Source: Mobula hypostoma (Eukaryota). Taken from it: a stretch of DNA of 64,000 bases. Positions 5,154 to 58,278 of this stretch are shown here, in pieces (position 1 is the first letter of the stretch; every line of letters begins with the position of its first letter). Both the position numbers and the translations under genes were made by a program. The notes beneath the pieces are model-generated. The model was given only the letters and a program-made list of their open reading frames with translations. It ran no database searches and was not told where the DNA came from. The stretch lies in the NCBI RefSeq assembly GCF_963921235.1, contig NC_086097.1:20524001-20588000 (forward strand), given 5' to 3'.

Positions 5154-5288
5154 CACGCAAACACGAGGAAATCTGCAGATGCTGGAATTTCAAGCAACAG
5201 ACATTAAAATTGCTGGTGAATGCAGCAGGCCAGGCAGCGTCTATAGGAAGAGATACAGTCGATGTTTCGGGCCGAGACCCTTCGTCAG
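5154..5288 (-). mobile_element. 135-bp hammerhead-bearing pLTR-derived insertion
   Basis: Flanked by direct repeat TAATACTAAG (5144-5153 / 5289-5298). Confidence 0.8.
5256..5288 (-). ncRNA. Hammerhead motif lacking the 5' strand of stem I
   Basis: Reverse complement reads CTGACGA AGGGTCTCGGCCC GAAA CA TC GACTG. Confidence 0.6.
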
Positions 5289-7275: not shown

Positions 7276-8006
7276 CAGCGGTCCCCAACCACCAGGCCGC
7301 AGAGCATGTGCTACCGGGCCGCGAGGAAACAATATGAGTAAGCTGCACCTTTCCTCACTCCCTGTCACGCACTGTTGAACTTGAACATAGGGTTGCCAAC
7401 TGTCCCGTACATGCCGGGACGTCCCGTATATTGGGCTAAATTGGTTTGTCCCGTATTTCCCCTGCTAAGGTAGAGCGTTCCTATGAAACCTTTTGTGCCG
7501 AAATGGTGTGAAGCGAAGAAGCAATTACTATTAATTTATATGGGAAAAATTTGTGAGCGTTCTGAGACCCAAAAAATAACCTAACAATTCATACCAAATA
7601 ACACATAAAACCGAAAATAAGTAACGCTAACATATAGTAAAAGCAGGAATGATATGATAAATACACAGCCTATATAAAGTAGAAATAATGTATGTACAGT
7701 ATAGTTGGGAAGATGAACGCAAAACCGATTTGTGGGGGAAAAAATCAGCATGTACGCGCATGCGCATACAGGTGCCCACGCAAGTCTTCATGGTCATGGT
7801 AGTCTTTCCTGGGGTAAAGTGTCCCGGGATTTGACTGCTACTTTTGTCCCTAATTTGGGAGTGAGAAAGTTGGCAACCCTAACTGTAAAAGACATGTTGA
7901 GGTGAGTTTAATCCTACTTGAACACGCCCCCCCCCCCAAGTCGGCTGGTCTGCAATACTGTCAATATTAAACCGGTCCGCGGTGCAAAAAAGGTTGGGGA
8001 CCCCTG
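7276..8006. mobile_element. Non-autonomous hAT element with an internal second TIR pair (7388-7881)
   Basis: TIR CAG(C/G)GGTCCCCAACC; 8-bp TSD AGCTAAAC/AGATAAAT; inner TAGGGTTGCCAAC...GTTGGCAACCCTA. Confidence 0.88.
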
Positions 8007-8009
8007 AGA

Positions 8010-8160
8010 TAAATAGTTACCCAAGCTGAATTTAGTTTCTTTGATACTGAGACCACATTTTGAACACCATACAAAACTTAATAAATTGGAAGAACTGTAA
8101 ATGAATTGCTCCTTCACCTGGAAGAACTGTTTGGCTTTTTGGAACAAGCTTTTCTTTTTC
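8010..8160 (-). mobile_element. Old Penelope GIY-YIG relic
   Basis: FQVKEQFIYSSSNLLSFVWCSKCGLSIKETKFSLGN resembles the PLE motif FTCxSxN(V/L)IYxIxCxxCxxxYIGET. Confidence 0.55.
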
Positions 8161-8191
8161 TCTAACTGCATACAAGATGACAAGAAGTGGT

Positions 8192-16941: not shown

Positions 16942-19900
16942 GCAAGTAAATTGCCTGTATTTAAATTTCCTGTTGATAGTTTCCCCTTTTTTCAGTCTTT
17001 GGATTTGTTGTAAATTGTACATAATGATCCTTTTTGGTGGTGGTGGGGAGGGGGAGAAAGGAGTGTCATTATTTTTCAGAGATAAAGTGCAGAGTAGTCC
17101 CTTCCAGCCCTTTGAGCCCTGTTGCCCCAGCCCCCACCAACATCTCCACTTTCAACCCTACCCTAATCATGGGACAACTTACAAGGACCAGTTAACCTAC
17201 CTGATACATCTTTGGGCTGTGTGAGGAAACTGGAGAACCCGTGCATTCCACGGGGAGGGATATCTTATCTGAGGCACCACAAACTGCTGGCAGCCATTAG
17301 AATGTTATTTTGGACACTTGCACGGTAGTCTTATGCGCAGCAAGCTCTCAGCATCAGGAGCTCAATGTTTGGACAATTAAGGCTGATTTATACTTCTGTG
17401 TCAAATGGACGCCATAACCTACGCAAGTGGCCTACACGCATTGTGAGCATTTATACTTGTGCGTTGGTGTGTCTGCGTCGCTCTGCAATTCGGGCATGTC
17501 ACGCATGTGCGCACATCTGCCCGTGCAAGGCTGCATGGTCATGGTAGTCTTTCTTGGGTAAACAAGTTTAAAGTGAACATCTTTTTTTGTAAAAGCGAAA
17601 TGTGTCCTCCGTAATTTCGGAGGTCTGTAAAGCTTTATGGAAAGCATTGCAGCCAGAGTTCCTTCCCTGCCCTTCAGTCGCCCAATAGGAAGCTATTGCA
17701 GCATAGGAGGAAATGCGATGCTACCAAGCGGACCAATCACAGTTGTTACAGTCTGCGTTGCGGCGATGGATAGTTACATTTTGGGAGAGGTGCGCATCAG
17801 GCTACGGCGTAGGGATCCGCGTAGGCACTGCGTAGGGTTCGCAGCTACGCCGTACCTACAGCGTTGATTTGACGCAGAGGTATAAATCAGCCTTTAATCT
17901 TGTTGCTTGAGAATTTGTTCAGATAAGAATGTAGGCCATCAGAGAATTTTCTATCCTCAGTGGAAGAGGCAGAGGTGATTTGAGTGAAAAGACTTTTGAG
18001 GAAGGGATTTGAAGGGAATGTTTAATGTTTATATGTTCTCTTTTGTTGCATCCTGAGATCTCCCTTTTCCACACCCACATTTCTGGCAATCCATCTTCTG
18101 TCTTCTTGGAATTAATCAGAAACAGATTTAATCACTGGCAGATCTCGTGGAATTTGTTAACTTTGCAGCAGCAGTGCAACGAAAAACATAAAAAAATAGA
18201 AAAAACCATGAATTTCAATATGTATATATGTATGTATGTACATCGAATAGTTAAATTAAATAACGAAAACAGAAATAAAAAAATAGTTTTAATGTCCATT
18301 CAGAGATTGGTTGGCAGATGGGGAAAAAGCTGTACTGAATTGTTGAGTTCCTGTACCTCCTAGGGCATGTCCTAGGTGGTGGGGGTCCTTAATGAGATGT
18401 CCTGGATACTACAGAGACTAGTGTCTGTGATGGAGCTGACTAAATGGACACCTTTCTTCTGCTTACTTTGATCCTGTGCAGTAGCCGCCCCCACCCCCAC
18501 CATACCTGATGGTGATGCAGCCAGAAATCAGTAAAAAACACTCATTGACCCCACCCTCACCCCTCCTTATTACTCCCTGGCCTTTCTGTCACCTGTGTGA
18601 ATCTTCCTTTTTTTCACAACAGCAGATTAGGATCAGTGATCATTTACTGATCAATGTCCTGACGTGGGGTCTCAGCCCGAAATATCAACTATTTATTTCC
18701 CTCCATAGATGCAGCCTGATCTGCCGAGTTCCTCCAGCATTTTGTGTTTGTTGATCATTTACTTTTCCTTGGATCTGACGTAGAAACAGAAGCAGGCAAC
18801 TTAGCCAGTTAGGCCTGCCCAATCCTGAGTCTGTTGACGTTATCCTATTTGGGCGGTGTGTTTCAGACATGGAGGGAAAAAAATAACCCTACCTCAGAAC
18901 TGTAGTCGACAAATCTCAGGCTGGAAACTGCAGAGTGATTAAAGGTTCAAAGTACATTTATTATCAAAGTATGTACACAGAATACAGATTCGTCTTGCTG
19001 TAGGCAGCCACGAAGCACAGAAACACCATGGAGCCTGTTCAAATAAAACATCAAACCCCAAAAAAAGACCAAATTGCACAAATGACAAAAAGCGAGCAAA
19101 TAACACAAAGAATGTCAAACGTCAAACCAGGAGTATTCACTTTAGTTCATATCAGTTCAGTTCAGCGCCACAGTGCTAGCTGATGACAGACCAGAGTCAC
19201 TCTTCACCAAAGCGCCCCGATTAAACCACTCAGCAGCATCCAGAATTACTGACAAAAGCAAAATTATTCTTCTATTGAAGTGGTTTGAGAATAATTACAT
19301 ATTGCAAATTCTGTGCGTAAAATCAATCCCAGTCACTTGCAATGGTGTGTGATTGATGGAAGTATCTCAACATAGATATGTTGGCTACGAAATGATATAT
19401 GAGTAGTTCTTATAAATGATACATAAATTACATAAGTAGTTCTGTCTACTGCCTCATTGGGTGGACGTTAGTGGTAAAATACATTGAGAGATTAGGTTAA
19501 GTGAGTAGCACAATATAGAGACCATAAGAGCAGAATTAGGCCATTTGGCCCATCGAGTCTGCTCCACCATTCAATCATGGCTGATCCTTTTTTTTAATCT
19601 CCTCCTCAACCCCAGTTCCCGGCCTTCTCCCCATAACCTTTGATGCCATGTCCAATCAAGAACCTATCAATCTCTGCCTTAAATACACCCGACAACCTGG
19701 CCTCCACAGCTGCATGCGGCAACAAATTCCACAAATTCACCAGCCTTTGGCTGAAGAAATTTTTCTACAGCTCCATTTTGAAAGGGCGCCCCTCTATCCT
19801 GAGGCTGTGTCCTCTTGTTCTAGACTCTCCCACTATGGGAAACTTCCTTTCTACATCTACATCTCTGTCTAAGCTTTTCAACATTCGAAAGGTTTCAATG

Positions 19901-28900: not shown

Positions 28901-31900
28901 AACAGTATTTAATGATTTTTGTGGCTGATTACAGTTTTTTTGTGACCAGATCTTGTCTGAATTACACAGTAAATCTGTTAGGTTCAGCTTTTTTCAAGAA
29001 AGTAATAATATATGCCGGCATCCTGTCATTAATAGTGCCCCTTCTGTTGCACAAGCAAGAATATTGCACTGCTTTAAGTGACTGGGACTGAGTTTACATG
29101 CATGTGTGCAGCATTAGTGAGTAGAATGTCCTTCTCTTTGAAAAACTGATCAACAACCCAAAATATTGACTCTCCATTCATATCTGTTTCTAGTCCTTTT
29201 GCAAATAACAACTCGTGAACCATGCTTTCATCTTTTATGAAGCGGACATAATCAAGAAGTAAAGATTTGTTGCCTGGCAAAGTTGACTCATTCAACTGCA
29301 AAGCAAGTTATTTAGTCCTAAGTGTGTTGCACAGTGTGTCCTCCAACTTCTGAGGCACTTCGTCTATTTACCTTTGAACAGAGTTGTCGCTGAGTGGAAT
29401 CGATTTAATTATTTGGTCTGGTGACTTATGCAAAACCATACTCAGAACCTCCCTTACCCAGCATCAGAATCAGAGGGTGAGAGGTGACATGATAGAGGTA
29501 TATAAGATGATGAAATGCATTGATCGTGTGGATAGTCAGAGGCTTTTTCCCAGGGCTGGAATGGCTAGCACTAGAGGTCACTTGGAAGTTGGTACAGAGG
29601 AGATGTCAGGGGTAAGTTTTTTATGCAGAGATGGTGAGTGTGTGGAATGGGCTGCCGCTGACAGTGGTGGAGGCAGATATGGTAGGGTCTTTTAAGAGAC
29701 CTCTGAACAGGTACGTGGAGCTCAGAAAAATAGTGGGCTATGGGTAACCCTAGGTAATTTCTAAGTTAAGGACTTGTTCAGCACAGCCTTGTGGGCCGAA
29801 GGGCCTGTATTGTGCTGTAGGTTTTCTATGTTTCTATCAGGTTTATTATCACCAGCATGTGTTGTAAAATTTGTTAACTTAGCAACAATAGTTCAATACA
29901 GTTGTTACATACCTCATGGAGATCTTGTGACTTTCTTGTGAGAATGATGTAATGGTCTTTTGGAGGTCACCTGATGTAATTTTCCCGCCGATGTGAGGTC
30001 ACGTGATGACATGTTCACCACGGGTATAAAAGGGAAGACCCCTGGTGACGCAGTTAGTTTTCCAGTTAGAATGTCAATGAGATACTCTGCTCCGCTGCGT
30101 ATTTGCATTATGACGCAGTTTTGATTTTTAAATGGAGTTTTATGTTCTATTGTAAGGTACAGAAATACTGGGCCGGCAGTTTGACCAATTGCTGCCAGGT
30201 TTGTTAATGTATCTTTTCAGTAACATTGGAGAGTGAAGACGGGACCCTGAAGGAGACGTTGACGGGTTTGGAAAGGATCGACCATTATTGAATTTGTTCA
30301 AGAGAGAGTGATCTGCATGAGATAGCCTCTGCTAAAAGTGGTAGAAAAGGCTGTGCAGGATCTAGTCTATGGAGGAGGAAGGTCAGTGCCTTTAAAACCA
30401 TTTTATTTCCGTCGTTGTGAATCCTGCGGACAAGGAAGGATCCGGCTGGGAGTGGCAGCGACATCGTGTCTTCGAGGAATTCGTTACTTTATGAAAGTCT
30501 CTCCTAATTGACTATATAAATCTCTTGGACTTTAACATTTACCATTCGAAGAACTGTGTTTGAATTTATCGCTTTAAGAACTGGTTTCGCATTTATCGCT
30601 TTAAGAGCTAGTACTGAGTAGCGGTTTAATGAATGGCTGCATAGCAGTTTACTTCCGGTTAGGGTTTTTGTTTTTTGTTCATTGTTTATCAGGGTTTAAT
30701 AAATGCTTGTTTGTTTCTAAATCCTGACTTGATATATTCATTGTTGCCGATCACGTGACACTGTACATAATATAGAAAAAACTAAAATAATAATAATAAT
30801 AAAGAAATAAGTGGTAAGTACTGCTGACACAGTCAGTTCTTCTCCAACTGTATTGGGCTTTCCAGATTTAGCAATAAGCAATGAAATTTGTATGAAACAC
30901 TCAAATCATCACTGTTTGGTTGCAGAGTGCTGGCAAACATGTTTTGAAGTGTTTTATGTTTCTGAAAGTTTTCACAAAATGACTGAAAATAAGCCAAGTT
31001 CTTGTTTCCTTTATCAGAGTGTATTCTTTCAATGATGAAGGAGCCTGGATGGTTTCATTGTCTCATTTGAAAAAAGCTTTTCACACATCAGATATACCGG
31101 CTGCTGTTGTTCGCTTGTTACTAGTATAAATCCGTATTTATCGTCTACACTTCATTTTCATTTGGTCTGCATCTTCCATTTTCGTTACGGTTTAATGACC
31201 ATGATCAATCAACTGAAGGTTTAAAGTGGGGCAGTGATATCTCGGTTGAGCCATGTGCTAGGGAAATGCAGTCAAGCCAATTCAAAAGGGTAGTTTTGAA
31301 CTTTACCCTGTTGAACGCCATATCCTAATTCACAGGAATTGTGTCACTGCATGGTTAGAGCATGGGAATTATACTACAGTAGAGAATGGCAATAATGCAC
31401 AGGCTGACCCAAGGAATACAATTTCTTCAATATCTTATGTTATGCTAAATACAGAAGCGTTACATTGCTTTTCGACCACTATAATGTGCTTCGAGCAAAA
31501 TCTAAGAGAACGGTGAGTTAGCAAGGAATAGGGTGCTGATTATCGTAATTAACTAAGCCTATAAACCCTCAGCTGCCCCCCCCTTGCTATTGACCGTTCC
31601 CCCCACTGCTCCCTTATCTTTTTTGTCCTCTTTGAAACTCCCAGTATCCCAGACAGGTAGTATCACCCACTTTGGGAATCAATGATCTATAAGGACGGTA
31701 TATAAGACAGGGTTTTCACTGTGCCCTTGTACATGTGAGAATAATAAACCAATTTACTAACTTTTACAGATATGGTGCAGGCAGACAATAAATTGCAAGA
31801 GCCATGACATTGTAGGTTGTGAAGTCAAGAAAGCATCTTTAAGAGTTCTCTTCCCACAACTGCTGTCTGGCCTGCTGAGTGTTTTTCTGTTTTTTATCTC

Positions 31901-34900
31901 AGATTTTCAATAGCTGCAGGTATTCTGATTTTATTTTCCTTTGACAAGGAGCTGGAGTGACTCTGGCCCATGGCCTCTTTCTGTGCTGTAACTATTGTGT
32001 GTTTACAGCCTATGCTTCTCCAGTTCTCACCTACACTGAAACACCCTTCCTGTCTTCATATCATATGTTATAACTGGACATTATAACAGAAGTGGGCCGA
32101 GCAATGGCAGTTGGAGTTCAATTTGGAAAAGTGTGAAGTGATTCACTTTGGAAGGTTGAACTAGAAGGCAGGCTACAGAATTAATGACAGGATTGTTAGC
32201 AGTGTAGAGCAACAGAGGGATCTTGGGGTCCACATCCATAGGTCCTTCAAAGTTGCTGTGCAAGTTGATAGTGTGGTTAAGAAGGCCTTCATTAGCTCCA
32301 TGATGTACGAGTTAAAGTCCCAGATGTAACTCACCAGATCTATTCTCAACATGCGTCCAAATAGTTTCCCCAGGTGGGTATTTAAAGGCAAGTGTCTCCA
32401 TGAAGTACTGGGACTCATGTTCATAACTGTAACTGTGGGTCCAGTTAAATATGAGATGGGAAATACTCAGGATCAGGTTTAATATCATTGGCATATGTTG
32501 TGAAATTTGTTGTTATGCAATAGCAGTACGTAATAGTAAATTAGAGTGAGAACTATGTATAAAAAGAGTTCAATATGTAGTGCAAAAAGAGAAAAAGAAA
32601 GTAGTGAGGCTCAATGTCCATTCAGAAACCAGATAGCAGAGGGTAAGAAGCTATTCCTGAATCTTTGAGTCTGTGCTTTCAGGCTCCTGATGGTAGTAAT
32701 GAGAAGAGGGCTGTGGTAAAGTCAGTGTATTCTGAAACTGGGTAAATACAGTTATGGTAAAGGGAAACACCACTTTTCAGTCTCTTCTCTGTACTTGCCT
32801 AACCTTTGGATTGTTTTGTCCTGCAGGTAAAAGGGATTCTTCAAGTGGTTTATTTGGGATCAGCCGGCCTGGGAGTTTCCAGACACTTTCTGATTGTAAG
32901 TACTTTTTTTTGGCTTTACAGTTATTTGGGCCATCGGTTACTCGGGGCAGCCACTCATTTGGGATAACACAAAGAACAAAAACAATTCGAAGAAATAGCG
33001 TTAGTCACATGCATGTCATGTGGCTTAGAGCAAATAGTTGTTAAATAGCGTTACTTGCGTATTTGTGTTAATAAAAACAGTGATTTTTGTCACTGATGGT
33101 TGGCAAGTAATACAGAGTAAGACAATTCAGAACTGTTTTGCTCACTGTGGTTTCAAGCATTCTGGCTTGAAGATATCAGATATGGCTGGGAGTGAAAATG
33201 AAACAATTTCACTACTTCAGCAAGTTAGGGGGATCTGTCAGGTTGCATGGGGATTGTGAGTGAACAGCCCTTTTCAAGTCCAGCCACAAATTCTCAGTTG
33301 GTTTGAAGTCTGGACTCTGACTTGGCCACTCCAGGACATTAACTTGTTGTTTTTAAGCCATTCCTGTGTAGCTTTGGCTTAATGCTTGGGGTCATGGTCT
33401 TGCTGGAAAACACATCTCCCAAGTCGCAGTTCTCTTGCAGACTGCATCAGGTTTTCCTCCAGGATTTCCCCGTATTTTGCTGCGTTCATTTTACTCTCTT
33501 CCTTCACAAGCCTTCCAGGGCCTGCTGCAGTGAAGCATCCCCACAGCATGATGCAGTCACCACCATGCTTCACAGTAGGGATGGTGTGTTTTTGATGACG
33601 TGCGGTATTCGGCTTACGGCAGACGTAGCATTTAGTCTGATAGCCAGAAAGCTCAATTTTGGTTTTATCAGACCATAGAATCTTTTTCCAGCTGATTTCA
33701 GAGTCTCCCACATGCCTTCTGGCAAACTCTAGCCGAGATTTCATGTCAGTTTTTATTCAGCAATGGTTTTCTCTTTGCCACTCTCTCATAAAGCTGCAAC
33801 TGGTGAACCATCTGGGCAACAGTTGCTGATTGCACAGTCTCTCTCATCTCAGCCACTAAAGCTTGTAACTCCTCCAGAGTTGTCATAGGTCTCTTGGTGG
33901 CCTCCCTCACGAGTCCCCTTCTTGCACAGCCAGATTTACAGCTGTGCTATATTCTTTCCATTTCTTGATGATTGACTTACCTGCACTCCAAGGGATTTTC
34001 AGTGACTTGGAAATTTTCTTGTATCCATCTCCTGACGTGCTTTTCAATAACCCTTTCATGGAGTTGCTTGGAGTGTTCTTTTGTCTTCATGGTGTAGTTT
34101 TTGCCAGGATTCTGACTCACCAACATTTGGACATTCCATATTTGGGTGTATTTTTACTACAACAGTTGAAACACCTTGACTGCACATTGGTCTCCAAAAA
34201 CAGATCTCAATTATGAGACTTCTAAAACCAGTTGGCTGCGCCAGTGATGATTTGGTGTGACATATTAAAGGGGGTGAATACTTATACAATCAACTATTTA
34301 TGCTTTCTGTCATTCCATCATGGCTGTTCATTATACTTCTCAACTCCATTCTCCCCGTTAACTTTGATGCTCTTATTAATCAAGAGCCTATCAACCTCCA
34401 CTTTTTATACAGGTGTCCCCGTTTTTCAAACGTTCGCTTTAGGAAACCTCACTGTTATGAAAGACCTACATTAGTACCCTATTTTCACTTTCAGAAGGTG
34501 TTTTCACTGTTACGAAAAAAAAATTCAGCGCACGATAAAAGGCAGCACGCCCCGAGCAGCAACTCGCCCCCAGATTCAGAACTGCTTTGCTTTAACACGT
34601 TGCAGTGAGCAGCCGTTTGCAAGATGAGTTCTATGGTATTGGAAAAGCCTGAAAGAGCTCGTAAGGGTGTTACACTTACGGTAAAACTAGACATAATTAA
34701 GCGTTTTGATATGGTGAACCAAGTAAGGACAATGCGAGTTTGGCTTGTGGAAGCTGACGAACATGATGTTGAAGAGGTTTTGGCATCCCATCACCAAGAA
34801 CTGACAGGTGAAGAGCTGATGCAATTGGAAGAAAAAAGGACAACAATCGAAACCGAATGAGTAACGATAAAGTACGACTTTAATTTTGAAAGGGTACATC

Positions 34901-49900: not shown

Positions 49901-52900
49901 TTATAAGGTTGCCCCTCCCATTTCCAGTTTAGCTGCATCTTACCTATAACAGGGTGACATAAATATAATTGAGATCATGGCTGATCCAACCTTGATCTCA
50001 TTTATATATGTATGTTATAGGAAAGGCCTCAATGCTTCTTTTCCTCCTCTCTCATCTTATGGTTCATGAGTCTGGCAATCTCTGTTTTGAATATATTAGA
50101 TGACACTGCCTCTGCAGCTCTCTGGAGGAGAATACCCCTATGAAAAGAGAAATTCCTATATATGTATTCCCATGCATTATCTTGGGACATAGGAGACCAT
50201 TTGGCTCAGTGACTCTTATGTTAGCTCTCAGAAGCATGCCTATCAGTGATACCATGCCACCATTTGACTCCCTGTAAGGTCTTCTCTCTTACCCATCAAC
50301 TCCTCCAGTTCCCCTGGCATCTGCCTGCACTGCGGCCAATTTACAGTGCTCAATTAACCTCCCCTGCAGAATATGGGAGGAAATCAGGGACCCTGGGGTA
50401 AGTCTGTGTGGACATAGAGAACATGCAGACTGCACACGGTCAGTAACAGACATCAGTCTGTAGCCTGGGTTCCTGGAACTGTGAAGCAACAGCACTATCT
50501 ATTTGCATCACTGTTCCTCCTCATTTGTCTTAAGTCGGCAATGCCTTATTCTGAATCTATACCCACTCGTTTAAGGTAACCCTATTAAGGGAAACATTCC
50601 CTTGCCTTCCTCCCTCCGATCCCCTTCAATGTCCATCAAAATCTTAAAACATTTTAATAAGGCATTTTGTCATTTTCCTATACTGTGTTGTGTACAGGCC
50701 CAATGTACTCAGCCATTCAATGCCTTCATCCCATCCTGAATCCCTCCCGTACAATTGTTACCTGGATGCCATTCATTAAGGTCCTGATACCTGGCACCTG
50801 GCACCACAAAGTTGTGCGCATCTGAAAAGCCGTGAGGTAAGGACAAAATCTTTTGGGGACACAATAGATCCATCACTGCAAAAGAGGGGGAATCTCAGTT
50901 AATGTCTGTTTCTATCTATGAGAGGACTTTAATTTATCTCTCTTCTGCTGCCTATCAAATTTTATAGGATTTTCTGATTTTATCTCAGAATTCTGCAACT
51001 TGTAATTGCTTCATTACTGCACCTTGAGTTCAAAATAAATTTATTATCGAAGTACATGGAGTTCTGCATAGGTATGTTCCATTGAGGCAGGGAAAGGATG
51101 GTAGGGTAAAAGAACCATGGTGTACAAAGGATATAGAAAATCCAGTTAAGAAAAAAAGAAAAGCTTATGGAAGGTTCAAGAAACTAGGTACTGTTAGAGC
51201 TCTAGAAAATTACAATGGTGTCAGGAAGGAGCTCAAGAATGAAGTTAGGAGAGTTAGAAGGGGCCTTGAGAAGACCTTGGCGACCAGGATTAAGGAAAAC
51301 CCCAAGGCATTTTACAAGTACGTGAAGCACAAGAGGATGTGCCACGTGAGAATGGGACCAATCAGGAGTGAGATTGGAAACCTGGGTATGGAGCTGGACG
51401 AGGTAGCGGAGGTACTTAATGAATACTTTGCTTCAGCATTCACCAGTGAAAAGGACCTTGGCAATTGTGGGGATGACTTACAGCAGACTTGAGTGTATAG
51501 ACATTAAGAAAGAGGATGTCCTGGAGCTTTTGAAAGGTATTAAATTAGATAAGTTGCCGGGACCGGATGAGATATACCCCAGGCTCCTGTGGGAAGTGAG
51601 GGAGGAGATTGCTGAGCCTTAGGTGGTGATCTTTGCCAAGGAAGATTGGAAGGTTGAAAACATTGTTCCCTTGTTCAAGAAAAGGAGTAAAGATAGCCCA
51701 GGAAATTATAGACCAGTGAGTCTTACTTCTGGGGAGGGCAATTTGTTGGAGAACTTCCTGAGAGGTAGGATTTATGAGCATTTAAACAGATTTAATCTGA
51801 TTAGTCATAGTCATAGTCATACTTTATTGATCCCGAGGGAGATTGGTTTTCGTTACAGTTGCACCATAAATAATTAAATAGTAATAAAACCGTAAATAAT
51901 TAAATAGTAATATGTAAATTATGCCAGGAAATAAGTCCACGACCAGCCTATTTGCTCAGAGTGTCTGACCCTCCAAGGGAGGAGGTGTAAAGTTTGATGG
52001 CCACAGGCAGGAATGACTTCCTATGACGCTCAGTGTTGCATCTCAGTGGAATGAGTCTCTGGCTGAATGTACGCCTGTGCCCAACCAGTCCATTATGTAG
52101 TGGATGGGAGACATTGTCCAAGATAGCATGCAACTTAGACAGCATCCTCTTTCCAGACACCACCATCAGAGAGTCCAGTTCCATCCCCACAACATCACTG
52201 GCCTTACCAATGAGTTTGTTGACTCTGTTGGTGTCTGTTATCCTCCGCCTGCTGCCCCAGCACACAACAGCAAACATGATAGCACTGGCCACCACAGACA
52301 CGTAGAACATCCTCAGCATCGTCTGACAGATGTTAAAGGACCTCAGTCTCCTCAGGAAATAGAGACGGCTCTGACCCTTCTTGTAGACAGCTTCAGTGTT
52401 CTTTGACCAGTCCAGTTTATTGTCAATTCGTATCCCCAAGTATTTGTAATCCTCCACCATGTCCACATAGTCAGCATGGCTTTGTCAAGGGCAGGTCATG
52501 TCTTACGAGCCTGATTGAATTCTTTAAGGATGTAATAAAACACATTGATGAAGATAGAGCAGTGGATGTACTGTATATGGATTTTAGTAAGACATATGAT
52601 AAGGTTCCCCATGTGAGGCTCAATCAGAAAGAAATGAGGCATGGGATCCTTGCTTTGTGGATCCAGAATTGACTTGCCCACAGAAGGCAAAGGGTAGTTG
52701 TAGATGATTTGTATTCTGTATGGAGGACGGTGGCCAGTGGTATTCTGCAGGGATCTGTTCTGGGACCCCTTCTCTTTGTGATTTTTATAAATGACCTGGA
52801 TAAGGAAGTAGAAGGATGGGTTAGTAAGTTTTCTGTTGACACAAGAGTTGAAGGGTGTTGTGGATAGTCTGGAGGGTTGTCAGAGGTTACAGCGTGACAA

Positions 52901-55900
52901 CGATAGGATGCAGAACTGGGCTGAGAAGTGGCAGATTGGGTTCAATCCAGATAAGTGTGAAATGGGTCAGTTCAGTAGGTCAAATTTGGAGACAGAATAT
53001 AATACTAATGGTAAGCCTCTTGGCATTTTGGAGGATCAGCAAGATCTTGGGATCCACATCCATAGGACACTTAAAGTTGCTGCGCAGGTTGACAGTGTTG
53101 TTAAGAAGGCGTATGGTGTGTTGGCCTTCAACCATGGGATTGTGTTCAGGAGCCGTGAGGTAATGTTACAGCTATATAAGACCTTTGTTAGACCCCAGTT
53201 GGAGTACTGTTTTCAGTTCTGGTCACCTCACTAAGGAAGGATGTGGATAATATAGAGAGAGTGCAGAGGAAATTTACAAGGACGTTACCTGGATTGGAGA
53301 GCGTACCTTTTGAGACTAGGTTGAGTGAACTTGGCCTTTTCTCCTTGGCACGGCAGAGAATGAGAGGTGACCTGACAGAGGTGTATAAGATGATGAGAGG
53401 CATTGATCGTGTGGCTAACACAAGGGGGCATAGTTTTAAGGTGCTTGGAAGTAGGTACAGGGGGATGTCAGAGGTAAGTTTTTCACACAGAGAGTGGTGG
53501 GTGTGTGGAATGCACTGCCAGCGAAGGTGGTGGAGTCGGATACAATAGGGTCTTTTAAGAGCCTGTTAGGTACGTGGAGCTTAGAAAAATAGAGGGCTAT
53601 GCGATAGGGAAATTCTGGGAAGTTTCTAGAGTAGGTTCCATGTTTGTCACAACATTGCGGGCCAAAGGGCCTGTAATGTGCTGTAAATTTCTATGTTTCT
53701 ATGTTTAGATAGGTCACTGTATAATACCTAGAGATTCATTTTCTTGTAGACATTCACTGTAAAAGCGAAGAAATACAATAGAATCAATGAAAAACTACAC
53801 ACAAAATGTTGACAGCCAATGTGCAAAGGAAGACAAACTGTGTAAATAAATAAATAGTACTGAGAACATGAGTTGTAGAGTCCTTGAAAGTGAGTCCGTA
53901 GGTTGTGGCATCAGTTCAGAGCAGAGATGAATGAAATTATCCATGATAGTTTTAGGAGCCATGATGGTTGACTATTCCTGAACCTGGTGGTCTTATAGCT
54001 CCTTCCCAATAGCAGCAGCGAGAAGTGAGCATGGTCTGGATGGTGGAGATCCTTAATGATGGATGCTTGAGAATGGTCGGTTCCCAAGCTTCCAGTTTCT
54101 AAATTGTTGTTAAGGATTTTCTGTTGATGTCTGAAGCAAATTTGCAGGAGATATTAACTCGTTTTCAAATTCAATAAATGCCATTGCAGTCAGGTTAATT
54201 TGTTTTAATATTTTAATTTCTTATTTCAGCTCTTGCGCTACAAGGAACATTTAAATATCAGAAGCCATAGTGAGAGGAAGGAATATTTGAAAAGCTGTAT
54301 TGGGTAAGTATTGAGTAGAGATACTGTGTAAGCAAGCAGCTGAGAGAAGGCAAGCTAACAGGGTTGATAATTTTGTTTATTTCCACCCAAGGGCTCTAAG
54401 TTTCTAATTTCTCTCCTCCTTTCCCACTTGATGCGCTCCCCTTGTTGGGCCACAGTGCTGTGGGTACAGGGCATTCAAATGTTCATCCAGGTACTATGTT
54501 AGTTGAAGCAGTGAATGTTGAAATCCCTGCACACTGTGATCATGTCCAAACACAATCCTGCCATCCCTCACTTTGTATTAGAAACAGAGGGCTATACAGT
54601 ACAGAAACAGGCCCTTCAGCCCAGTAAGTCTATGTCAGAATCAAAATCAGATTTATTTTCACCAGCATGTGTCGTGAAATTTGTTAACTTAGCAGCAGCA
54701 GTTCAATGCAATACATAATATAGAAGAGAAAAAACAAAACAAAATAACAAACAAATAAATATATTGAATAGATTAAAATAGTGCAAAAACAGAAATACTA
54801 TATAGATTAAAAAAGTGAGGTAGTGTCCAAGGTTCAATGTCCATTTAGGAATCTGATGGCAGAGAGGAAGAAGCTGTTGCTGAATTGCTGAGTGTGTGCC
54901 TTCAGGCTTCTGTATCTCCTACCTGATGGTAACGGTGAGAAACGGGCATGCCCTGGGTGCTGGAGGTCCTTAATAATGGATGCTGCCTTTCTGGGACACC
55001 GCTCCCTGAAGATGTCCTGGGTACTTTGCAGCCTAGTACCCAAGATGGAGCTGACTAGATTTACAACCCTCTGCAGCTTCTTTCGGTCCTGTGCAGTAGC
55101 CACCCCCCACCCCACATACCAGACGGTGATGCAGCCTGTCAGAATGCTCTCCACAGTACACCTATAGAAGTTTTTGAGTGTATTTGTTGACATACCGAAT
55201 CTCTTCACACTCCTAATGAAGTATAGTCACTGTCTTGCCACCATACTAATCCCACAGAGGGGAAGGTGGGTGGTGGGGAAGCAGAAATGAACTAAGAAAC
55301 TGGGAAGCGACAGGCGGAAGAGACAGCTTCCCCTTCACCTGGTCTCACCTATCACTTCCCATCTTGTATCTTTCCCCTCCCCTCACCTTCTTGTTCTGGC
55401 TTCTACTCCTTCCTTTCAGTCCTGAGGAAGGGTCATGACCCGAAACGTCGACTGTTCATTCCCCTCCATGGGTGCTGCGTGACCTGCTGAGTTCCTCCAA
55501 TGTTTTTTGTGTGATACCTGAGATTTCCAGTACCTGCTGAGTCTCTTGTGTTTATGATTTTCTCTGTCTCTGTTTTTGTCTTTAGGCTCCCGTTTGCGAC
55601 TGATGATAGTGCCTTTGTTGAAGATCACTATACACTGCTGGAGAGACAGATTATTATCGATGTGAGGAACAACTTGGTGTATAGTTTACCTTTCCATTAT
55701 CATTGGTCCACCTCAGAACCCACCATCAGCTCGTTCCTTCGACACCCACTAATGGTCTTCTCCCCTTCCAACTGCAAGTTTATCCCATATCTACCTTGAT
55801 TTCCAGCCAGATTTCCACATTGGAAAGAACTGCTTTGTTTTTGCTCAAATTCAAAAAGACATAGTCAGCACTTTTTTTTCCCCCACGGGTACACAATAGA

Positions 55901-58278
55901 AAGCCTACTGTCTGCATGCAGCTTGTTGTGGATGCAGCTTAATCTATTATTTGAACCAGCTTGCCCTCCACTAACTGTCATATCACATCCAAGGACCCCT
56001 CTCCTGCTGAGAATTCTCTCTTCTCCCCTCTCCCTTTGGGCAGAAGGGGCAAAAGCATGAGAACATTTACCAGCAGACTCAAGGGCAGCTTCTGTCCCGC
56101 TATTATAGAATCTTGTATGGACCTAATATATACTAAAACTGAAATCTTTCTATCTTAATCTGTCTTGTTGTGACCCTTGCGCTTTATTTGTCCACTATAC
56201 TGTTTCCTCCCACAGCCCAAAGACGTATGAGTTAGTAGGTTAATTGGTCATTGTAAATTGCCCTGTGCAGAGGCGAGGGTTAAATAGTTGTGTTGCTGGA
56301 TGGTGTGGCTAACTAGCCCGGAAGGGCCTGTTCCGTGCTGTATTTCTAAGTAACTAAATCAATGTGCTGCATTTTCTCGGTATCTGCAACACAATATATT
56401 CTGCATTCATTATTTTTACTTTGGTACTACTGATGTATTTATGTCTGGTGTGATCTAGTTGGAGGCCATGTAATCAAAAGCCTTTCACTGCACCTTAGAA
56501 CATGGATCAATAATATGCCAATTACTAATTCCCAGCATTTTGTGTTAGTATCACACTCTGTACATTATAGCCAGTTTTGTATGAGACATAGTGTCATACA
56601 GCATGGAAGCAGGTCCTTTGCCCCAACTCATCCATGCCAACTGTGTTGCCCGTGTTTGGCCCACAGCCTTCTCAACCTCCCTTATCCATGTACTTATCTA
56701 AATGGCTCAATGTGCCCACCTCAACTATTATTTTTGGTAGCTCATTTTAAGTACACATCACCCTTTTGTGAAGCAGCTGCCCCTGATGTCCCTTTTAAAT
56801 CTCTCACCTCTGATCTTAAACCTATGCCCTCTTGTTTTTTTATGGACCACCTCCCTGGGATAAATACTCTGTGCTTTCACCCTGTCTGTGCCCTGCCTGA
56901 TCTTACTCACCGCTCCTGATCACTGATCTCCCTCCTGGTACTTAGCCTTGCAACCGGAACAAGTGCCACACCTGCCCCTAAACACCCCAGGGCCCCAAAC
57001 AGTCCTTCCACTGGAGGTGACTCTTCATTTGTGAGTCCATTGGGCTCATCTACTATATCCGGTGCTCCTGGAGTGGCGTCCTGTATATTGGCGAGACCCG
57101 ACGCAGATTGGTAGACTGCTGAGCACCTTCGCTCCATCTGCCAGAAAAGCAAGATCTCCTGGTGGCCATCCATTTCAGTTCTGCTTCCCATTCCCATTCC
57201 CATTCCCATTCTGGCATAACAGTCCATGGCCTCCTCTACTGTCGTGATGAGGCCACGCTCAGTTTGGAGGAGCAACACCTAATATTCCGTCTGGGTAGCC
57301 TCCAACCTGATGCAATGATCATCGATCTCTCGAACCTCTGGTAGTTGTCCCCCCCCCCCCGCCCCACTTCACCATTCCCCAATCCCATTTCCGTCTCTCA
57401 CCTTATCTCCTTACCTGCCCATCACCTTCCTCTGGTTCTCCTCCCCCTTCCCTTTCTTCCACGGCCTTCCGTCCTCTCTTATCAGATTCCCCTTTCTCCA
57501 GCCCTTTATCTCTTTCTCCTATCAACTTTCCAGCTCTTTACTTCACCCCACTCCCGTTTTTTCTTATCATCTGCTACCTTTTACTTCTTCCTCCCCTTCC
57601 TCCACCTCCTTACTCTGACTTCTCATTTCCTTTTCCAGTCCTGATGAAGGGCTTCAGCTGAAACGTAGATTGTTGAATTTTTTTCCATAGATGCTGCTTG
57701 GCCTGCTGAGATCCTTCAGCATTTTGTGTGTATTGTTTATTCACCACTGTCAGGTCCTCCCCCTAATAAGGTAAAAAGGTTCTAGTAAATGCAACTTTCC
57801 TCATAACTAAGGCCCCTAAGTCCAAGCAATATCCTGATAAATCTTTTATGCATTATTTCTAGTTTAAAGTCTTTCCTATAACAGGGTAACCAGAACGATA
57901 CACCATAGTCCAAATGAGGCTTTATCCACTCCAAGTTGTTCTTGTTTTACTGCATATTTTATGTCCTTCTGAGAGTGCCCAGTGAACTTATGTGGTATCT
58001 TTAACTAAGTAAGAAACTGTAAAGAGAGACAAATTTAGGGTTTACTGGGAATGAACTCTGGGTGGTACTTGTGAAAAGGACTGTCCATTTCACTGAGATT
58101 GCCCTGGCTTCAGAGGTGACCATTGTTGTTTCTGGGTTTTCAGGAGAACGATAAACGTGTTGAGGCATCCAAACAGATGAAAGTGTTCATTGAGCACCCC
58201 AGGAAGGCTTCCATCCTGTGCATGCCACTCGTGACAACACTTTACTACTCCTGCTTTTATCATTACGGAGAAACGGAG
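16849..58278 (+). CDS. VIPAS39: VIPAS39 / SPE-39 homolog, spliced CDS (13 coding exons in window, 3' end missing)
   Basis: 13 AG..GT/GC-bounded exons join in consistent phase into 357 codons: [127 protein letters not shown]. This is colinear with vertebrate VIPAS39 as recalled. Confidence 0.97.
17380..17893. mobile_element. PIF/Harbinger-type MITE
   Basis: ~27-bp TIR AGGCTGATTTATACTTCTG(C/T)GTCAAAT; TSD TTA. Confidence 0.88.
18656..18690 (+). ncRNA. Degenerate hammerhead relic
   Basis: GTC CTGACGT GGGGTCTCAGCCC GAAA TATC AACT, followed by the same downstream repeat sequence as the other copies; core A9 is mutated. Confidence 0.45.
19517..21420 (-). mobile_element. CR1 LINE fragment
   Basis: [50 protein letters not shown]. 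Confidence 0.92.
21539..21862 (+). mobile_element. V-SINE (tRNA head + V domain)
   Basis: A box TAGTGTAGCAGTT, B box GGTTCAATTCC, V domain gagtttgtacgttcttcccatgact..ctccagtttcatcccaca. Confidence 0.85.
22253..23172 (+). mobile_element. Rex1/Babar-type LINE 3' fragment
   Basis: [29 protein letters not shown]. Confidence 0.88.
23431..23530 (+). CDS. VIPAS39: VIPAS39 coding exon 2 (100 nt)
   Basis: ttccttcag|[33 protein letters not shown]|gtaagg. Confidence 0.96.
24095..24622 (+). mobile_element. CR1 LINE 3' end
   Basis: [32 protein letters not shown] plus tail. Confidence 0.86.
24810..24956 (+). CDS. VIPAS39: VIPAS39 coding exon 3 (147 nt)
   Basis: tttcctcag|[27 protein letters not shown]|gtaaac; phase 1-1. 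Confidence 0.95.
25660..26348 (-). mobile_element. Rex1/Babar-type LINE 3' fragment
   Basis: [27 protein letters not shown]. Confidence 0.82.
27859..28777. mobile_element. PIF/Harbinger non-autonomous element
   Basis: TIR GG(G/C)TACGTCCACACTA(A/G)ACCAGATAA; 3-bp TSD TGA; splits the hAT transposase. Confidence 0.9.
29903..30760 (+). mobile_element. Solo LTR (Gypsy-like)
   Basis: TGTTAC...GTGACA termini, 4-bp TSD CAGT/CTGT, TATA box GGGTATAAAAGGG ~30022, AATAAA ~30698; removing it restores the host LINE tail gttcaatacagtacataatatag. Confidence 0.82.
32827..32895 (+). CDS. VIPAS39: VIPAS39 coding exon 4 (69 nt)
   Basis: gtcctgcag|[23 protein letters not shown]|gtaagt; phase 1-1. Confidence 0.9.
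33235..34295 (-). mobile_element. Tc1 transposon fragment (decayed transposase)
   Basis: [47 protein letters not shown]. Confidence 0.93.
34410..35953 (+). mobile_element. pogo/Tigger-type internally deleted element
   Basis: TA|CAGGTGTCCCC...GGGGGAAACCTG|TA; peptide [38 protein letters not shown]; inserted in a CR1 tail. Confidence 0.87.
35138..35413. repeat. Long imperfect inverted repeat (arms ~120 bp)
   Basis: 35163-35231 is the reverse complement of 35312-35380; 35241-35258 pairs with 35289-35306. Confidence 0.9.
36365..36426 (+). CDS. VIPAS39: VIPAS39 coding exon 5 (62 nt)
   Basis: ctctgcccag|[21 protein letters not shown]|gtaggt. Confidence 0.88.
37587..37643 (+). CDS. VIPAS39: VIPAS39 coding exon 6 (57 nt)
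   Basis: tttccacag|[19 protein letters not shown]|gtatgg. Confidence 0.93.
38331..38423 (+). CDS. VIPAS39: VIPAS39 coding exon 7 (93 nt)
   Basis: gttttcag|[31 protein letters not shown]|gtaagt. Confidence 0.96.
39124..40061 (-). mobile_element. ~940-bp non-coding LINE-derived element
   Basis: Same architecture as 203-1015: CpG-rich 5' part (CTTCCAGTCACGATGACGTCA) and LINE-like tail ending ..aataaaatgaacctttgaacc. Confidence 0.5.
40767..40800 (+). CDS. VIPAS39: VIPAS39 coding exon 8 (34 nt)
   Basis: ttccttgcag|[11 protein letters not shown]+G|gtaatt. Confidence 0.94.
41148..41261 (+). mobile_element. 114-bp hammerhead-bearing pLTR-derived insertion
   Basis: Flanked by direct repeat TTAGAGGTTAAA (41136-41147 / 41262-41273). 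Confidence 0.85.
41162..41199 (+). ncRNA. Minimal type I hammerhead ribozyme motif
   Basis: TAGTC CTGACGA AGGGTCTCGGCCT GAAA CG TC GACTG. Confidence 0.8.
42528..42560 (+). ncRNA. Hammerhead motif, partly degenerate
   Basis: CTGATGA AGGGTCTCGGTCC GAAA CA TC GACTG; the 5' strand of stem I is imperfect (GAGTA). Confidence 0.6.
43167..43435 (+). mobile_element. V-SINE
   Basis: A/B boxes and V domain. Further partial copies near 5897, 17070, 25310, 44655, 45296, 50300 and 56200. Confidence 0.82.
43735..44257 (+). mobile_element. CR1 LINE 3' end
   Basis: Same family and tail. Confidence 0.86.
45769..45871 (+). CDS. VIPAS39: VIPAS39 coding exon 9 (103 nt)
   Basis: ttttacag|[34 protein letters not shown]|gtaaga. 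Confidence 0.95.
46134..46700. mobile_element. Tc1-type MITE
   Basis: TIR (C)ACTCAGTGGCC...GGCCACTGAGTG|TA; a related fragment lies at 42700-42918 in the opposite orientation. Confidence 0.83.
47236..47263 (+). CDS. VIPAS39: VIPAS39 coding exon 10 (28 nt micro-exon)
   Basis: ttcaatacag|[10 protein letters not shown]|gtaagt; phase 2-0 is required to keep the frame. Confidence 0.9.
47758..48025 (-). mobile_element. Short copy of the LINE family at 51803-52467
   Basis: Near-identical to 51810-52080 (tcatactttattgatccc..gtctctggctgaatgtac). Confidence 0.88.
48455..49355 (+). mobile_element. Rex1/Babar-type LINE 3' fragment
   Basis: [49 protein letters not shown]. Confidence 0.87.
49358..49813 (-). 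mobile_element. CR1 LINE 3' end
   Basis: [40 protein letters not shown]. Confidence 0.87.
51052..53707 (+). mobile_element. CR1 LINE, 5'-truncated, degenerate
   Basis: [72 protein letters not shown]; (TTTCTATG)n tail. Confidence 0.92.
51803..52467 (-). mobile_element. Second Rex1-like LINE family 3' end, nested in CR1
   Basis: [42 protein letters not shown] with an (ATGACT)n tail; a shorter copy lies at 47758-48025. Confidence 0.88.
54230..54303 (+). CDS. VIPAS39: VIPAS39 coding exon 11 (74 nt)
   Basis: ttatttcag|[24 protein letters not shown]+GG|gtaagt. Confidence 0.95.
54636..55240 (-). mobile_element. Rex1/Babar-type LINE 3' end (close paralog of 12840-13580)
   Basis: Near-identical translation [44 protein letters not shown]. 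Confidence 0.9.
55255..55553 (+). mobile_element. Penelope pLTR fragment with a short inverted 5' segment
   Basis: Purine-rich segment (tgggaagcgacaggcgg) is inverted relative to ctcacctatcacttccca; then hammerhead and shared tail (..cctgctgagttcctcca..tctcttgtgttt). Confidence 0.75.
55417..55454 (+). ncRNA. Minimal type I hammerhead ribozyme motif (best-preserved copy)
   Basis: CAGTC CTGAGGA A GGGTCATGACCC GAAA CG TC GACTG: perfect stem I and stem II, CUGANGA/GAAA core, GUC cleavage triplet. Confidence 0.85.
55586..55661 (+). CDS. VIPAS39: VIPAS39 coding exon 12 (76 nt)
   Basis: gtctttag|[26 protein letters not shown]|gtgagg. Confidence 0.96.
56905..57737 (+). mobile_element. Penelope-like element 3' fragment (GIY-YIG endonuclease relic + pLTR with hammerhead)
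   Basis: Translates [68 protein letters not shown], followed by a pyrimidine-rich pLTR and the hammerhead. Confidence 0.85.
57636..57672 (+). ncRNA. Hammerhead motif in Penelope pseudo-LTR (stem II weakened)
   Basis: CAGTC CTGATGA AGGGCTTCAGCT GAAA CG TA GATTG. Confidence 0.7.
58144..58278 (+). CDS. VIPAS39: VIPAS39 coding exon 13 (135 nt)
   Basis: gttttcag|[45 protein letters not shown]|gtgagt. Confidence 0.96.

What the first reader, a model, noticed from the sequence alone, without database searches (positions are those of the whole stretch)
5256..57672. A dispersed family of minimal hammerhead ribozymes: six copies in 64 kb
Seen: the motif CAGTC-CTGANGA-A-GGG-N6-CCC-GAAA-CG-TC-GACTG recurs at 5256(-), 18656, 41162, 42528, 55417 and 57636. 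It has stem I (CAGTC/GACTG), the CUGANGA and GAAA core, stem II, an NUH triplet (GUC/AUC/GUA) and a helix III reduced to the palindrome ACGT. An extra A sits between A9 and stem II. Known: Penelope-like elements carry minimal type I hammerheads with palindromic helix III that are thought to cleave as dimers. Inference: about one copy per 10 kb suggests a very abundant ribozyme-bearing repeat family that gene and ORF annotation would miss.
Basis: partly seen in the sequence, partly recalled or inferred. Interest (0 to 1): 0.85.

Follow-up and report, generated by a model that had tools for sequence, protein, structure and literature searches.

The report
Hammerhead motifs of a Penelope-like retrotransposon
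The six motifs are real minimal hammerhead ribozyme motifs, but they belong to the tail ends of an extremely abundant Penelope-like jumping gene, a kind of ribozyme-bearing element already described in 2014.

Summary
All six sites exist at the stated coordinates and are copies of one repeat. The motif is the minimal type I hammerhead (min-HHR) of Penelope-like elements (PLEs), with an extra base after A9 and an ACGU palindrome in place of helix III.

Six full-length copies elsewhere in the genome show a 1043-aa RT + GIY-YIG frame between two direct hammerheads about 3516 nt apart. The window copies are 5'-truncated 3' ends of such elements.

Only 2 of 6 keep an intact motif (41162-41199 and 55417-55454). 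No Rfam hammerhead model matches, and I found no stem covariation.

The family is huge and young:
- 46,047 exact 35-nt motifs.
- 171,977 exact copies of a neighbouring 19-mer.
- Full copies are 99.1-99.4% identical.

In 53 copies chosen without regard to the hammerhead, 5' ends pile up at the motif's 5' half (23 of 38). Only 1 of 53 starts at the predicted cleavage site.

Cleavage and expression could not be tested. The kind is known (PMC4209133), and this scan has found it before on other genomes.

The parts
5154..5310 (-). 5'-truncated PLE pseudo-LTR copy (profile positions 308-466, with the long 'tail' 3' end). Hammerhead motif at 5256-5293(-). The core is intact, but helix III reads ACAU and the stem I 5' strand is decayed.
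   Evidence: 86% identity to the young profile consensus
18656..18755 (+). Short old copy that starts at GTCCTGA (profile 329-427, short 3' end). Motif at 18656-18691 is dead: A9 and the extra A are mutated, and helix III reads AUAU. The flanks share the word CATTTACT.
   Evidence: 73% identity
41157..41266 (+). Young short copy (profile 322-431, short 3' end). Intact min-HHR at 41162-41199 with a G10.1-U11.1 wobble, the same variant as in the full-length copies. Its target-site duplication is TTAGAGGTTAAA. About 12 nt of inverted 3'-terminal sequence sit at the 5' junction.
   Evidence: 93% identity
42524..42664 (+). Old short copy that starts at AGTACTGA (profile 328-466, long tail). Motif at 42524-42560 has helix III ACAU and a truncated stem I.
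   Evidence: 75% identity
55335..55557 (+). Old copy of a divergent subfamily (profile 249-465, long tail). Intact min-HHR at 55417-55454, with stem II GGGU/ACCC and stem I CAGUC/GACUG.
   Evidence: 69% identity
56901..57738 (+). Old 5'-truncated PLE copy. It holds the C-terminal ORF piece (residues 893-1041 of the full frame, 63% identity, 56901-57338), the CT-rich 3' UTR, and a decayed motif at 57636-57672. The motif has a deletion in stem II and GUA before the cut site. The copy has the short 3' end.
31848..31924 (+). Possible further 5'-truncated piece without the hammerhead. It is a weak match, and the longer profile did not find it again.
   Evidence: E=1e-5; absent

Best explanation
Each site is the minimal hammerhead motif carried in the pseudo-LTR of a Penelope-like retrotransposon (PLE) whose RT-EN linker has the Neptune/Nematis-type motif.

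Shown here:
- Full elements are partial tandems. A truncated upstream copy supplies the first hammerhead. About 60 nt after its predicted cut site comes the first in-frame ATG of a 1043-aa RT + GIY-YIG frame. About 300 nt after the stop codon comes a second hammerhead.
- The element ends either about 70 nt (short end) or about 105 nt (long end, with the 'tail') after that second predicted cut site.
- The window holds six 5'-truncated copies of this 3' end. Two are sequence-intact and four are decayed.

Inferred from published work on relatives, not shown here:
- A single motif cannot form helix III. Two motifs pair through the ACGU palindrome into a double hammerhead and cut after GUC. The reaction is weak and probably protein-assisted.

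Inferred from the insertion record here:
- Nearly every insertion contains an uncut cleavage site, and almost none begins at it. The RNA that is reverse-transcribed is therefore mostly uncleaved, and cleavage is not a required step in making a copy.
- The two 3' ends fit the two internal reverse-transcription start sites described for an Anolis PLE.
For: Motif and chance:
- 5 matches against 0.05 expected.
- The strict descriptor gives 2 hits against 0 in 100 simulations.

Element:
- 6 of 6 full-length copies examined have a 1043-aa open frame between two direct hammerheads 3512-3520 nt apart.
- Pfam RVT_1 scores E=3e-5 (24.2 bits, below the 29.6 cut-off). GIY-YIG scores 21.1 bits (E=3.8e-4, below the 22.6 cut-off) in the full frame and 25.7 bits (E=1.4e-5, above it) in the 106-aa C-terminal ORF of L008.
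- The linker CKRNKCYTC lies before GIY-YIG.
- Upstream of the full frame lie a truncated ORF end, a 3' UTR and a hammerhead.

PLE hallmarks:
- 3' ends in 53 probe-selected copies are 32 short, 19 long and 2 other. A tail 19-mer occurs 97,812 times and a body 19-mer 171,977 times.
- 22 head-to-head pairs and 0 tail-to-tail pairs occur among 133 copies.
- Inverted 3'-terminal pieces sit at the 5' junctions of copies 41157 and 18656.

Class traits:
- The extra base after A9 is A in 50 of 52 copies.
- 15.2-16.2 is the CG palindrome.
- These are the traits listed in PMC4209133 (whole text read).

Use of uncut template:
- 1 of 53 copies starts at profile position 360.
- This agrees with PMC11167929 (passages read). 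There, core mutants did not change insertion in vitro, and no RNA-seq ends were seen at the cut site.
Against: - No Rfam hammerhead model matches. This holds at gathering score, at E<=10 on the whole window, and on two 91-nt pieces.
- There is no stem covariation. Two double-change cells (single copies) were seen across the 9 stem pairs in 52 copies.
- The hammerhead segments are only modestly better kept (87-97% identity to the young consensus) than the flanks (76-86%). The stretch downstream to the tail is also conserved between subfamilies. Conservation alone therefore does not single out catalysis.
- The young lineage has U at 11.1, where the class is described as having a highly conserved G10.1-C11.1 pair. 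The split is 26 C to 24 T in 52 copies, and 83 of the first 100 listed exact motifs have U.
- The predicted monomer fold of lowest energy (-12.2 kcal/mol) adds a competing GACG/CGUC helix to the hammerhead-compatible fold (-7.6). The ACGU duplex alone is worth only about -1.7 kcal/mol.
- Cleavage itself was not tested.
Confidence: 0.92

Rival explanations
1. The conserved block looks like a hammerhead but is not used for cutting. It serves as an RNA structure or protein-binding site at the 5' boundary of the template, or next to the reverse-transcription start region. It may mark the 5' end of the transcript or act as a roadblock for the reverse transcriptase.
For: - 23 of 38 pseudo-LTR-internal 5' ends fall in profile positions 322-349, the 5' half of the motif. 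2.8 were expected, binomial P about 5e-17.
- 5 of 5 old short copies found incidentally start within 2 nt of GTCCTGA.
- Only 1 of 53 copies starts at the cut site.
- The active lineage carries G10.1-U11.1.
- PMC11167929 (passages) reports that core mutants do not affect insertion in vitro.
- PMC8557442 (passages) notes that HHR-less PLE clades proliferate well and that HHRs may simply parasitize PLEs.
Against: - The complete catalytic core, the extra base, the G10.1 pair and the palindrome are all kept across subfamilies that differ in their 3' UTR.
- Relatives do cleave in vitro, weakly as dimers (PMC4209133) or with protein (PMC11167929).
- The 5' ends are spread over about 28 nt rather than at one base, so a single start site is not shown.
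Confidence: 0.3
2. The short copies of about 100-140 bp are a separate non-autonomous element, of retrozyme or SINE type. It would consist of hammerhead plus tail and be mobilised by the PLE, rather than being truncated PLE copies.
For: - Many copies begin at the motif and end at the PLE 3' end.
- A 2026 preprint (10.64898/2026.07.22.740005; abstract and Results part 1 read) argues that animal retrozymes derive from PLE pseudo-LTRs. It finds them in one cartilaginous fish.
Against: - No regular short-period tandem array appears among 103 hammerhead-bearing copies. Direct pairs are either unit-length (3512-3520 nt) or irregular. Two pairs spaced 785-787 nt share no internal homology.
- 5' ends form a continuum from the ORF down to the motif.
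- Short copies belong to the same subfamilies as long ones.
Confidence: 0.1
3. Some window copies are domesticated host ribozymes, comparable to the conserved intronic hammerheads of amniotes.
For: None found. Two pairs lie on the same strand 1.4 and 2.2 kb apart (41162/42528 and 55417/57636).
Against: - 4 of 6 copies are decayed at core or helix III positions, mostly by CpG-type changes.
- In each same-strand pair one partner is dead.
- The surroundings are other retrotransposon debris.
Confidence: 0.02

Closest known systems
Minimal hammerheads (min-HHR) of metazoan Penelope-like elements (Cervera & de la Pena 2014, PMC4209133)
   Same: - Type I topology, with no helix III stem-loop and a palindromic 15.2-16.2.
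- One unpaired base between A9 and 10.1.
- A short helix I of 5 bp.
- Location in both pseudo-LTRs of an RT + GIY-YIG element.
- Most genomic motifs are solitary, on truncated copies.
- Close pairs on opposite strands occur.
   Different: - Numbers: 46,047 exact 35-nt motifs here. The paper calls about 4,000 (coelacanth) and 9,000 (Xenopus) remarkable, though the counting methods differ.
- Helix II is 4 bp rather than the 6-8 bp described for Schistosoma and Drosophila.
- The young lineage has G10.1-U11.1 instead of G-C.
Poseidon element PAc of Anolis carolinensis (PMC11167929, passages read)
   Same: - Partial-tandem pseudo-LTR structure.
- Two alternative 3' ends about 35 nt apart, lying at the pseudo-LTR/ORF-start junction (the 'tail').
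- Both target strands appear to be used, which gives inverted copies.
- There is no sign that cleaved RNA is the template.
   Different: - In PAc the ORF starts inside the hammerhead, with the cut site 26 nt after the ATG. Here the first in-frame ATG lies about 60 nt after the cut site.
- The linker motif C-x4-C-x2-C points to the Neptune/Nematis type rather than Poseidon (PMC8557442 passages).
- No biochemistry was done here.
Non-LTR retrozymes of animals (PMC7229834, abstract in listing; preprint 10.64898/2026.07.22.740005)
   Same: Type I hammerheads with a weak helix III, and a proposed origin from PLE pseudo-LTRs.
   Different: Retrozymes are short tandem arrays that give circular RNAs. 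No such arrays were seen among 103 hammerhead-bearing copies here.
Rfam hammerhead families
   Same: The same catalytic core words, CUGANGA and GAAA.
   Different: No Rfam model matches at any threshold tried. My inference is that this is because helix III is missing.

Membership tests
min-HHR of Penelope-like elements | Catalytic core CUGANGA ... GAAA with U16.1 and H17 | tested here: met
   The core is intact by sequence in 5 of 6 window copies; 18656 has A9 mutated. Only 2 of 6 copies pass the whole strict descriptor. There are 46,047 exact 35-nt motifs genome-wide.
min-HHR of Penelope-like elements | [quoted passage not shown] | tested here: met
   A in 50 of 52 copies not selected on the motif
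min-HHR of Penelope-like elements | Conserved G10.1-C11.1 pair | tested here: inconclusive
   G-C in 25 and G-U in 24 of the 51 scorable of 52 copies. All 12 motifs of the six full-length copies have G-U. G10.1 itself is kept.
min-HHR of Penelope-like elements | Palindromic 15.2-16.2 with no or palindromic loop 3 (dimer-type helix III) | tested here: met
   ACGU is the family state. C at 356 in 47 of 52 and G at 357 in 39 of 52, the losses being CpG-type. 3 of 6 window copies keep it.
min-HHR of Penelope-like elements | Lies in both pseudo-LTRs flanking an RT + GIY-YIG ORF | tested here: met
   6 of 6 full-length copies
min-HHR of Penelope-like elements | Compensatory changes in helices I and II among family members | tested here: not met
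   Only 2 double-change cells (single copies) in 9 pairs x 52 copies. Little is expected among neutrally decaying copies of a few master sequences.
min-HHR of Penelope-like elements | Self-cleavage after H17 as a dimer | not testable with these tools
   Needs transcription and cleavage assays. RNA data with read ends were not available.
Rfam hammerhead models | Score at or above the curated gathering threshold | tested here: not met
   No match at gathering score or at E<=10 on the whole window, nor at E<=10 on two 91-nt pieces
Penelope-like elements (EN+; Neptune/Nematis-type linker) | Single ORF with RT followed by C-terminal GIY-YIG endonuclease | tested here: met
   RVT_1 at residues 533-695 (24.2 bits, below the 29.6 cut-off). 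GIY-YIG at 945-1021 (21.1 bits, below the 22.6 cut-off; 25.7 bits, above it, in the 106-aa ORF of L008).
Penelope-like elements (EN+; Neptune/Nematis-type linker) | Partial-tandem pseudo-LTRs, optional 30-40 bp tail, adjacent inverted 5'-truncated copies | tested here: met
   features as described in PMC8557442 and PMC11167929 (passages)
Penelope-like elements (EN+; Neptune/Nematis-type linker) | CX2-5CxxC motif in the RT-EN linker; placement in an RT phylogeny | tested here: inconclusive
   The motif CKRNKCYTC is present at residue 909. No phylogeny with named reference elements was made.
Non-LTR retrozymes | Short units in head-to-tail arrays, each with a hammerhead | tested here: not met
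   No regular short-period direct pairs among 103 hammerhead-bearing copies

The most novel reading that the evidence does not exclude
In this element the hammerhead block may work chiefly as the 5' boundary of the template RNA, not as a cutter. Insertion 5' ends pile up at its 5' half, with a mode at (A)GTCCTGA. The words TCAGTCC and TTAGTCC fit the initiator consensus YYANWYY (recalled, not from any call). The preceding CT-rich tract, which ends in CAG, looks like an intron 3' end. In Drosophila virilis Penelope an intron ends at the 5' edge of helix I (PMC4209133).

If transcripts start there, the many 100-140 bp copies would be run-off cDNAs. They would be made from the internal reverse-transcription start site back to the cap. 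With about 10^5 insertions, the record would also show that hammerhead-cleaved RNA is almost never a template.
Probability: 0.25. Interest if true: 0.6.

Novelty: new member of a known kind. Interest (0 to 1): 0.3.

Why it matters
The kind is known, so the find changes no picture by itself. Its value is as material.

This genome combines a young PLE family, probably recently active, with roughly 10^5 dated insertion 'fossils' of the ribozyme-bearing end. Nine of 82 scored ORF matches have uninterrupted 1043-aa frames, and six full copies are 99.1-99.4% identical.

What the hammerhead does for PLEs is still open (PMC8557442 and PMC11167929, passages). Two observations here bear on that question and could be extended genome-wide:
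- Insertions rarely start at the cut site but often start at the motif's 5' edge.
- The successful lineage carries a G-U at the conserved 10.1-11.1 pair.

For annotation, the six sites should be labelled as PLE fragments, with two sequence-intact hammerhead motifs.

Tried and rejected
- **Rfam.** Rfam release 15 gave no hammerhead hit at gathering score or at E<=10 on the whole window, nor at E<=10 on two 91-nt pieces.
- **Expression and cleavage ends.** No RNA holder was listed. All 22 runs are Logan contigs, none on record as RNA. Laying four of them cannot show starts, ends or level. No places where molecules begin or end were reported. The contigs only re-showed the two 3' boundaries (loose ends at L027 2982 and 3021-3022) and a drop in summed depth after the tail.
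- **Splicing.** Splicing of the CT-rich tract is not supported. The joints are not GT..AG. They fit subfamilies with different 3' UTRs.
- **Covariation.** None was found.
- **Dimer folding.** The nearest-neighbour model cannot score the double hammerhead, because its helix III is not nested. The cofold minimum is an extended stem II duplex.
- **Larger sample of 5' ends.** The sample stayed at 53.
- **Direct pairs at 785-787 nt.** Two such pairs turned out to be unrelated.
- **Protein search.** A search for longer relatives gave only 2 hits, one unnamed and one hypothetical GIY-YIG protein of a sea cucumber. No named reference PLE was obtained, so clade placement rests on the linker motif alone.
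- **Papers.** Lunse, Weinberg & Breaker (RNA Biol, PMC5785218) is not held. I know it only from its citation in PMC6765202 (passages). I found no paper on hammerhead ribozymes of PLEs in cartilaginous fishes (searches; term look-ups). The taxon of this genome was not determined, so this bears little weight. Supplementary figures and tables of PMC4209133 and the preprint's supplements were not seen. They may list this or a close family.

Full report
**1. Observation**

The core pattern with up to two mismatches occurs five times in the window, against 0.05 expected by chance. None of 100 shuffles reached five. I read all six stated sites. A profile built from them recovers exactly these six, plus one weak piece without the motif at 31848-31924.

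The sixth site (57636) is clearly decayed.

By a strict structural descriptor written after the published description, only two copies are intact: 41162-41199 and 55417-55454. The descriptor requires:
- helix I of at least 4 bp;
- an optional bulge after A9;
- helix II of at least 3 bp closed by G-C or G-U;
- a palindromic insert;
- U16.1 and H17.

It gave no hit in 100 first-order Markov simulations of the window.

The other four copies carry disabling changes:
- Helix III reads ACAU in 5256(-) and 42528.
- A9 is mutated in 18656.
- There is a deletion in stem II in 57636.

**2. What the repeat is**

The window lies in a 3.48-Gb assembly. There the 25-nt core with up to one mismatch occurs 93,469 times, and the reversed control occurs 0 times.

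Aligning eight such loci showed that the repeat runs at least 400 nt upstream, into the end of an open reading frame. That C-terminal piece has a GIY-YIG domain.

A protein search of the genome found 82 scored matches out of 158,023 first-look candidates. Nine of the 82 have an uninterrupted 1043-aa frame. I examined six of them.
- Each has two hammerhead motifs in direct orientation, 3512-3520 nt apart, flanking the frame.
- The upstream motif belongs to a truncated copy (ORF end, 3' UTR, hammerhead) that abuts the full frame.
- This is the partial-tandem 'pseudo-LTR' of Penelope-like elements.

The frame gave the following matches:
- RVT_1 at residues 533-695 (24.2 bits, below the 29.6 cut-off).
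- GIY-YIG at residues 945-1021 (21.1 bits, below the 22.6 cut-off).
- C-x4-C-x2-C linker at residue 909.

PMC8557442 (passages) ascribes that linker to the Neptune and Nematis clades. I made no phylogeny.

The six copies are 99.1-99.4% identical over the 3129-nt frame. The family is therefore young.

**3. Anatomy around the motif**

On a 471-position profile of the pseudo-LTR:
- CUGANGA is at 332-338.
- The extra A is at 339.
- Helix II is at 340-351.
- GAAA is at 352-355.
- ACGU plus C17 end at 359, so the predicted cut lies between 359 and 360.
- The first in-frame ATG is at 420.

Insertions end either at about 417-448 or at about 452-468. Among 53 copies chosen by a 19-mer downstream of the motif, 32 have the short end, 19 the long end and 2 neither. 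A tail 19-mer occurs 97,812 times and the body 19-mer 171,977 times.

This matches two published descriptions:
- the optional 30-40 bp 'tail' of PLEs (PMC8557442, passages);
- the two internal reverse-transcription start sites at the pseudo-LTR/ORF junction of an Anolis element (PMC11167929, passages).

Head-to-head inverted pairs are common: 22 pairs among 133 unique copies, with no tail-to-tail pairs. Copies 41157 and 18656 carry a few bases of inverted 3' end between the target-site duplication and the sense copy. Both traits are described for PLEs.

**4. The six window copies**

- 5154-5310(-): truncated at profile position 308; has the long tail.
- 18656-18755: starts at position 329.
- 41157-41266: starts at position 322.
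- 42524-42664: starts at position 328.
- 55335-55557: starts at position 249; an older subfamily.
- 56901-57738: reaches back into the ORF (residues 893-1041, 63% identity).

Identity to the young consensus runs from 93% (41157) down to 66-75%.

The surroundings are other retrotransposon debris:
- a LINE with endonuclease and RT at 60030-63747;
- an RT fragment at 11587-12426;
- a second, distant GIY-YIG fragment at 8004-8150(-).

**5. Is it a working ribozyme?**

This could not be tested directly.

For:
- The motif has every trait listed for the published class (PMC4209133, whole text read): core, extra base between 9 and 10.1, G10.1 pair, palindromic 15.2-16.2, and place in the pseudo-LTRs.
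- It is kept across subfamilies whose 3' UTRs differ.

Against or neutral:
- No Rfam model matches.
- There is no compensatory variation.
- The conservation excess over the flanks is modest.
- The young lineage has G-U at 10.1-11.1.
- The ACGU duplex is weak.

Published relatives cut weakly as dimers (PMC4209133) or with their protein (PMC11167929). I therefore take self-cleavage as plausible but inefficient.

**6. What the insertion record says**

The 53 probe-selected copies give a sample that is blind to the hammerhead. Fifteen run on into the ORF, and 38 begin inside the pseudo-LTR.
- Of those 38, 23 begin at positions 322-349, where 2.8 would be expected if starts were uniform (binomial P about 5e-17).
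- Only one begins at the predicted cut site, position 360, and it lies in an inverted pair.

Five of five old short copies met by chance begin within 2 nt of GTCCTGA.

RNA cut at the hammerhead was therefore rarely the template. This agrees with the Anolis work.

The 5' half of the motif is a preferred cDNA end. The cause is open. Possibilities are an RNA 5' end there (the words fit an initiator consensus that I recall, not from any call), arrest of the polymerase at the folded or protein-bound motif, or joining at the self-complementary stems in inverted pairs.

**7. Comparison and novelty**

The class was described in 2014. This scan has also met it on other genomes.

What is particular here:
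- **Scale.** There are 46,047 exact 35-nt motifs. The 2014 paper calls about 4,000 and 9,000 descriptor hits 'remarkable', and a 2021 paper calls tens of thousands of copies of another PLE clade exceptional (PMC8557442). The counting methods differ.
- **Youth.** The full copies are 99.1-99.4% identical.
- **The G-U variant.** It sits at the conserved 10.1-11.1 pair in the young lineage.
- **The 5'-end hotspot.** It lies at the 5' half of the motif.

I file the finding as a new member of a known kind. The organism was not determined.

Noticed in passing
own-genome loci L033-L082 (53 probe-selected copies); window 18656, 41157, 42524: Insertion 5' ends cluster in the 5' half of the hammerhead (profile 322-349: 23 of 38, against 2.8 expected), with a mode at (A)GTCCTGA. 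Only 1 of 53 starts at the predicted cleavage site.
   Followed up: partly
L027-L032 and the first 100 places listed: The young lineage with intact frames has U at 11.1 (a G10.1-U11.1 wobble) in all 12 motifs of six full copies. 83 of the first 100 listed exact motifs have U. A blind sample of 52 copies splits 26 C to 24 T.
   Followed up: partly
profile positions about 300-331; e.g. window 55395-55420 and 57610-57640; L027 2850-2882: The CT-rich 3' UTR ends just before helix I. It ends in a branch-point-like word (TACTCAC), a pyrimidine tract and CAG, which looks like an intron 3' end. In Drosophila virilis Penelope an intron ends at the 5' edge of helix I (PMC4209133). No spliced form was seen in the contig joints.
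   Followed up: partly
L003, L011, L012, L034, L041-L043, L049-L052, L069, L071, L079, L080: Head-to-head inverted pairs are frequent (22 pairs among 133 copies, and no tail-to-tail pairs). Many junctions fall inside the hammerhead, whose stems are self-complementary.
   Followed up: partly
window 41133-41160 and 18636-18655: Between the target-site duplication and the sense copy lie 7-13 nt that are the reverse complement of the element's own 3' end (the PLE 'tail' signature).
   Followed up: partly
window 8004-8150 (-): A GIY-YIG-like fragment only 38% identical to the main family's ORF, so it is probably a second, older PLE family. No hammerhead was sought next to it beyond the strict descriptor scan of the whole window.
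   Followed up: no
window 60030-63747 (+): A LINE-type element with Exo_endo_phos (E=1.1e-10) and RVT_1 (E=4.5e-42) in consecutive open frames. There are further RT debris at 11587-12426 and an ALKBH8_N-type match at 51948-52484(-).
   Followed up: no
window 4882-4948 (-): A tRNA-like match below the Rfam threshold (24.1 bits against 29), right beside the PLE copy at 5154-5310. It may be a tRNA-derived SINE head.
   Followed up: no
one search run table: Near-identical words of the pseudo-LTR are held by runs labelled as six coded organisms (shares 0.76 down to 0.07). This hints that the family is shared by related species.
   Followed up: no
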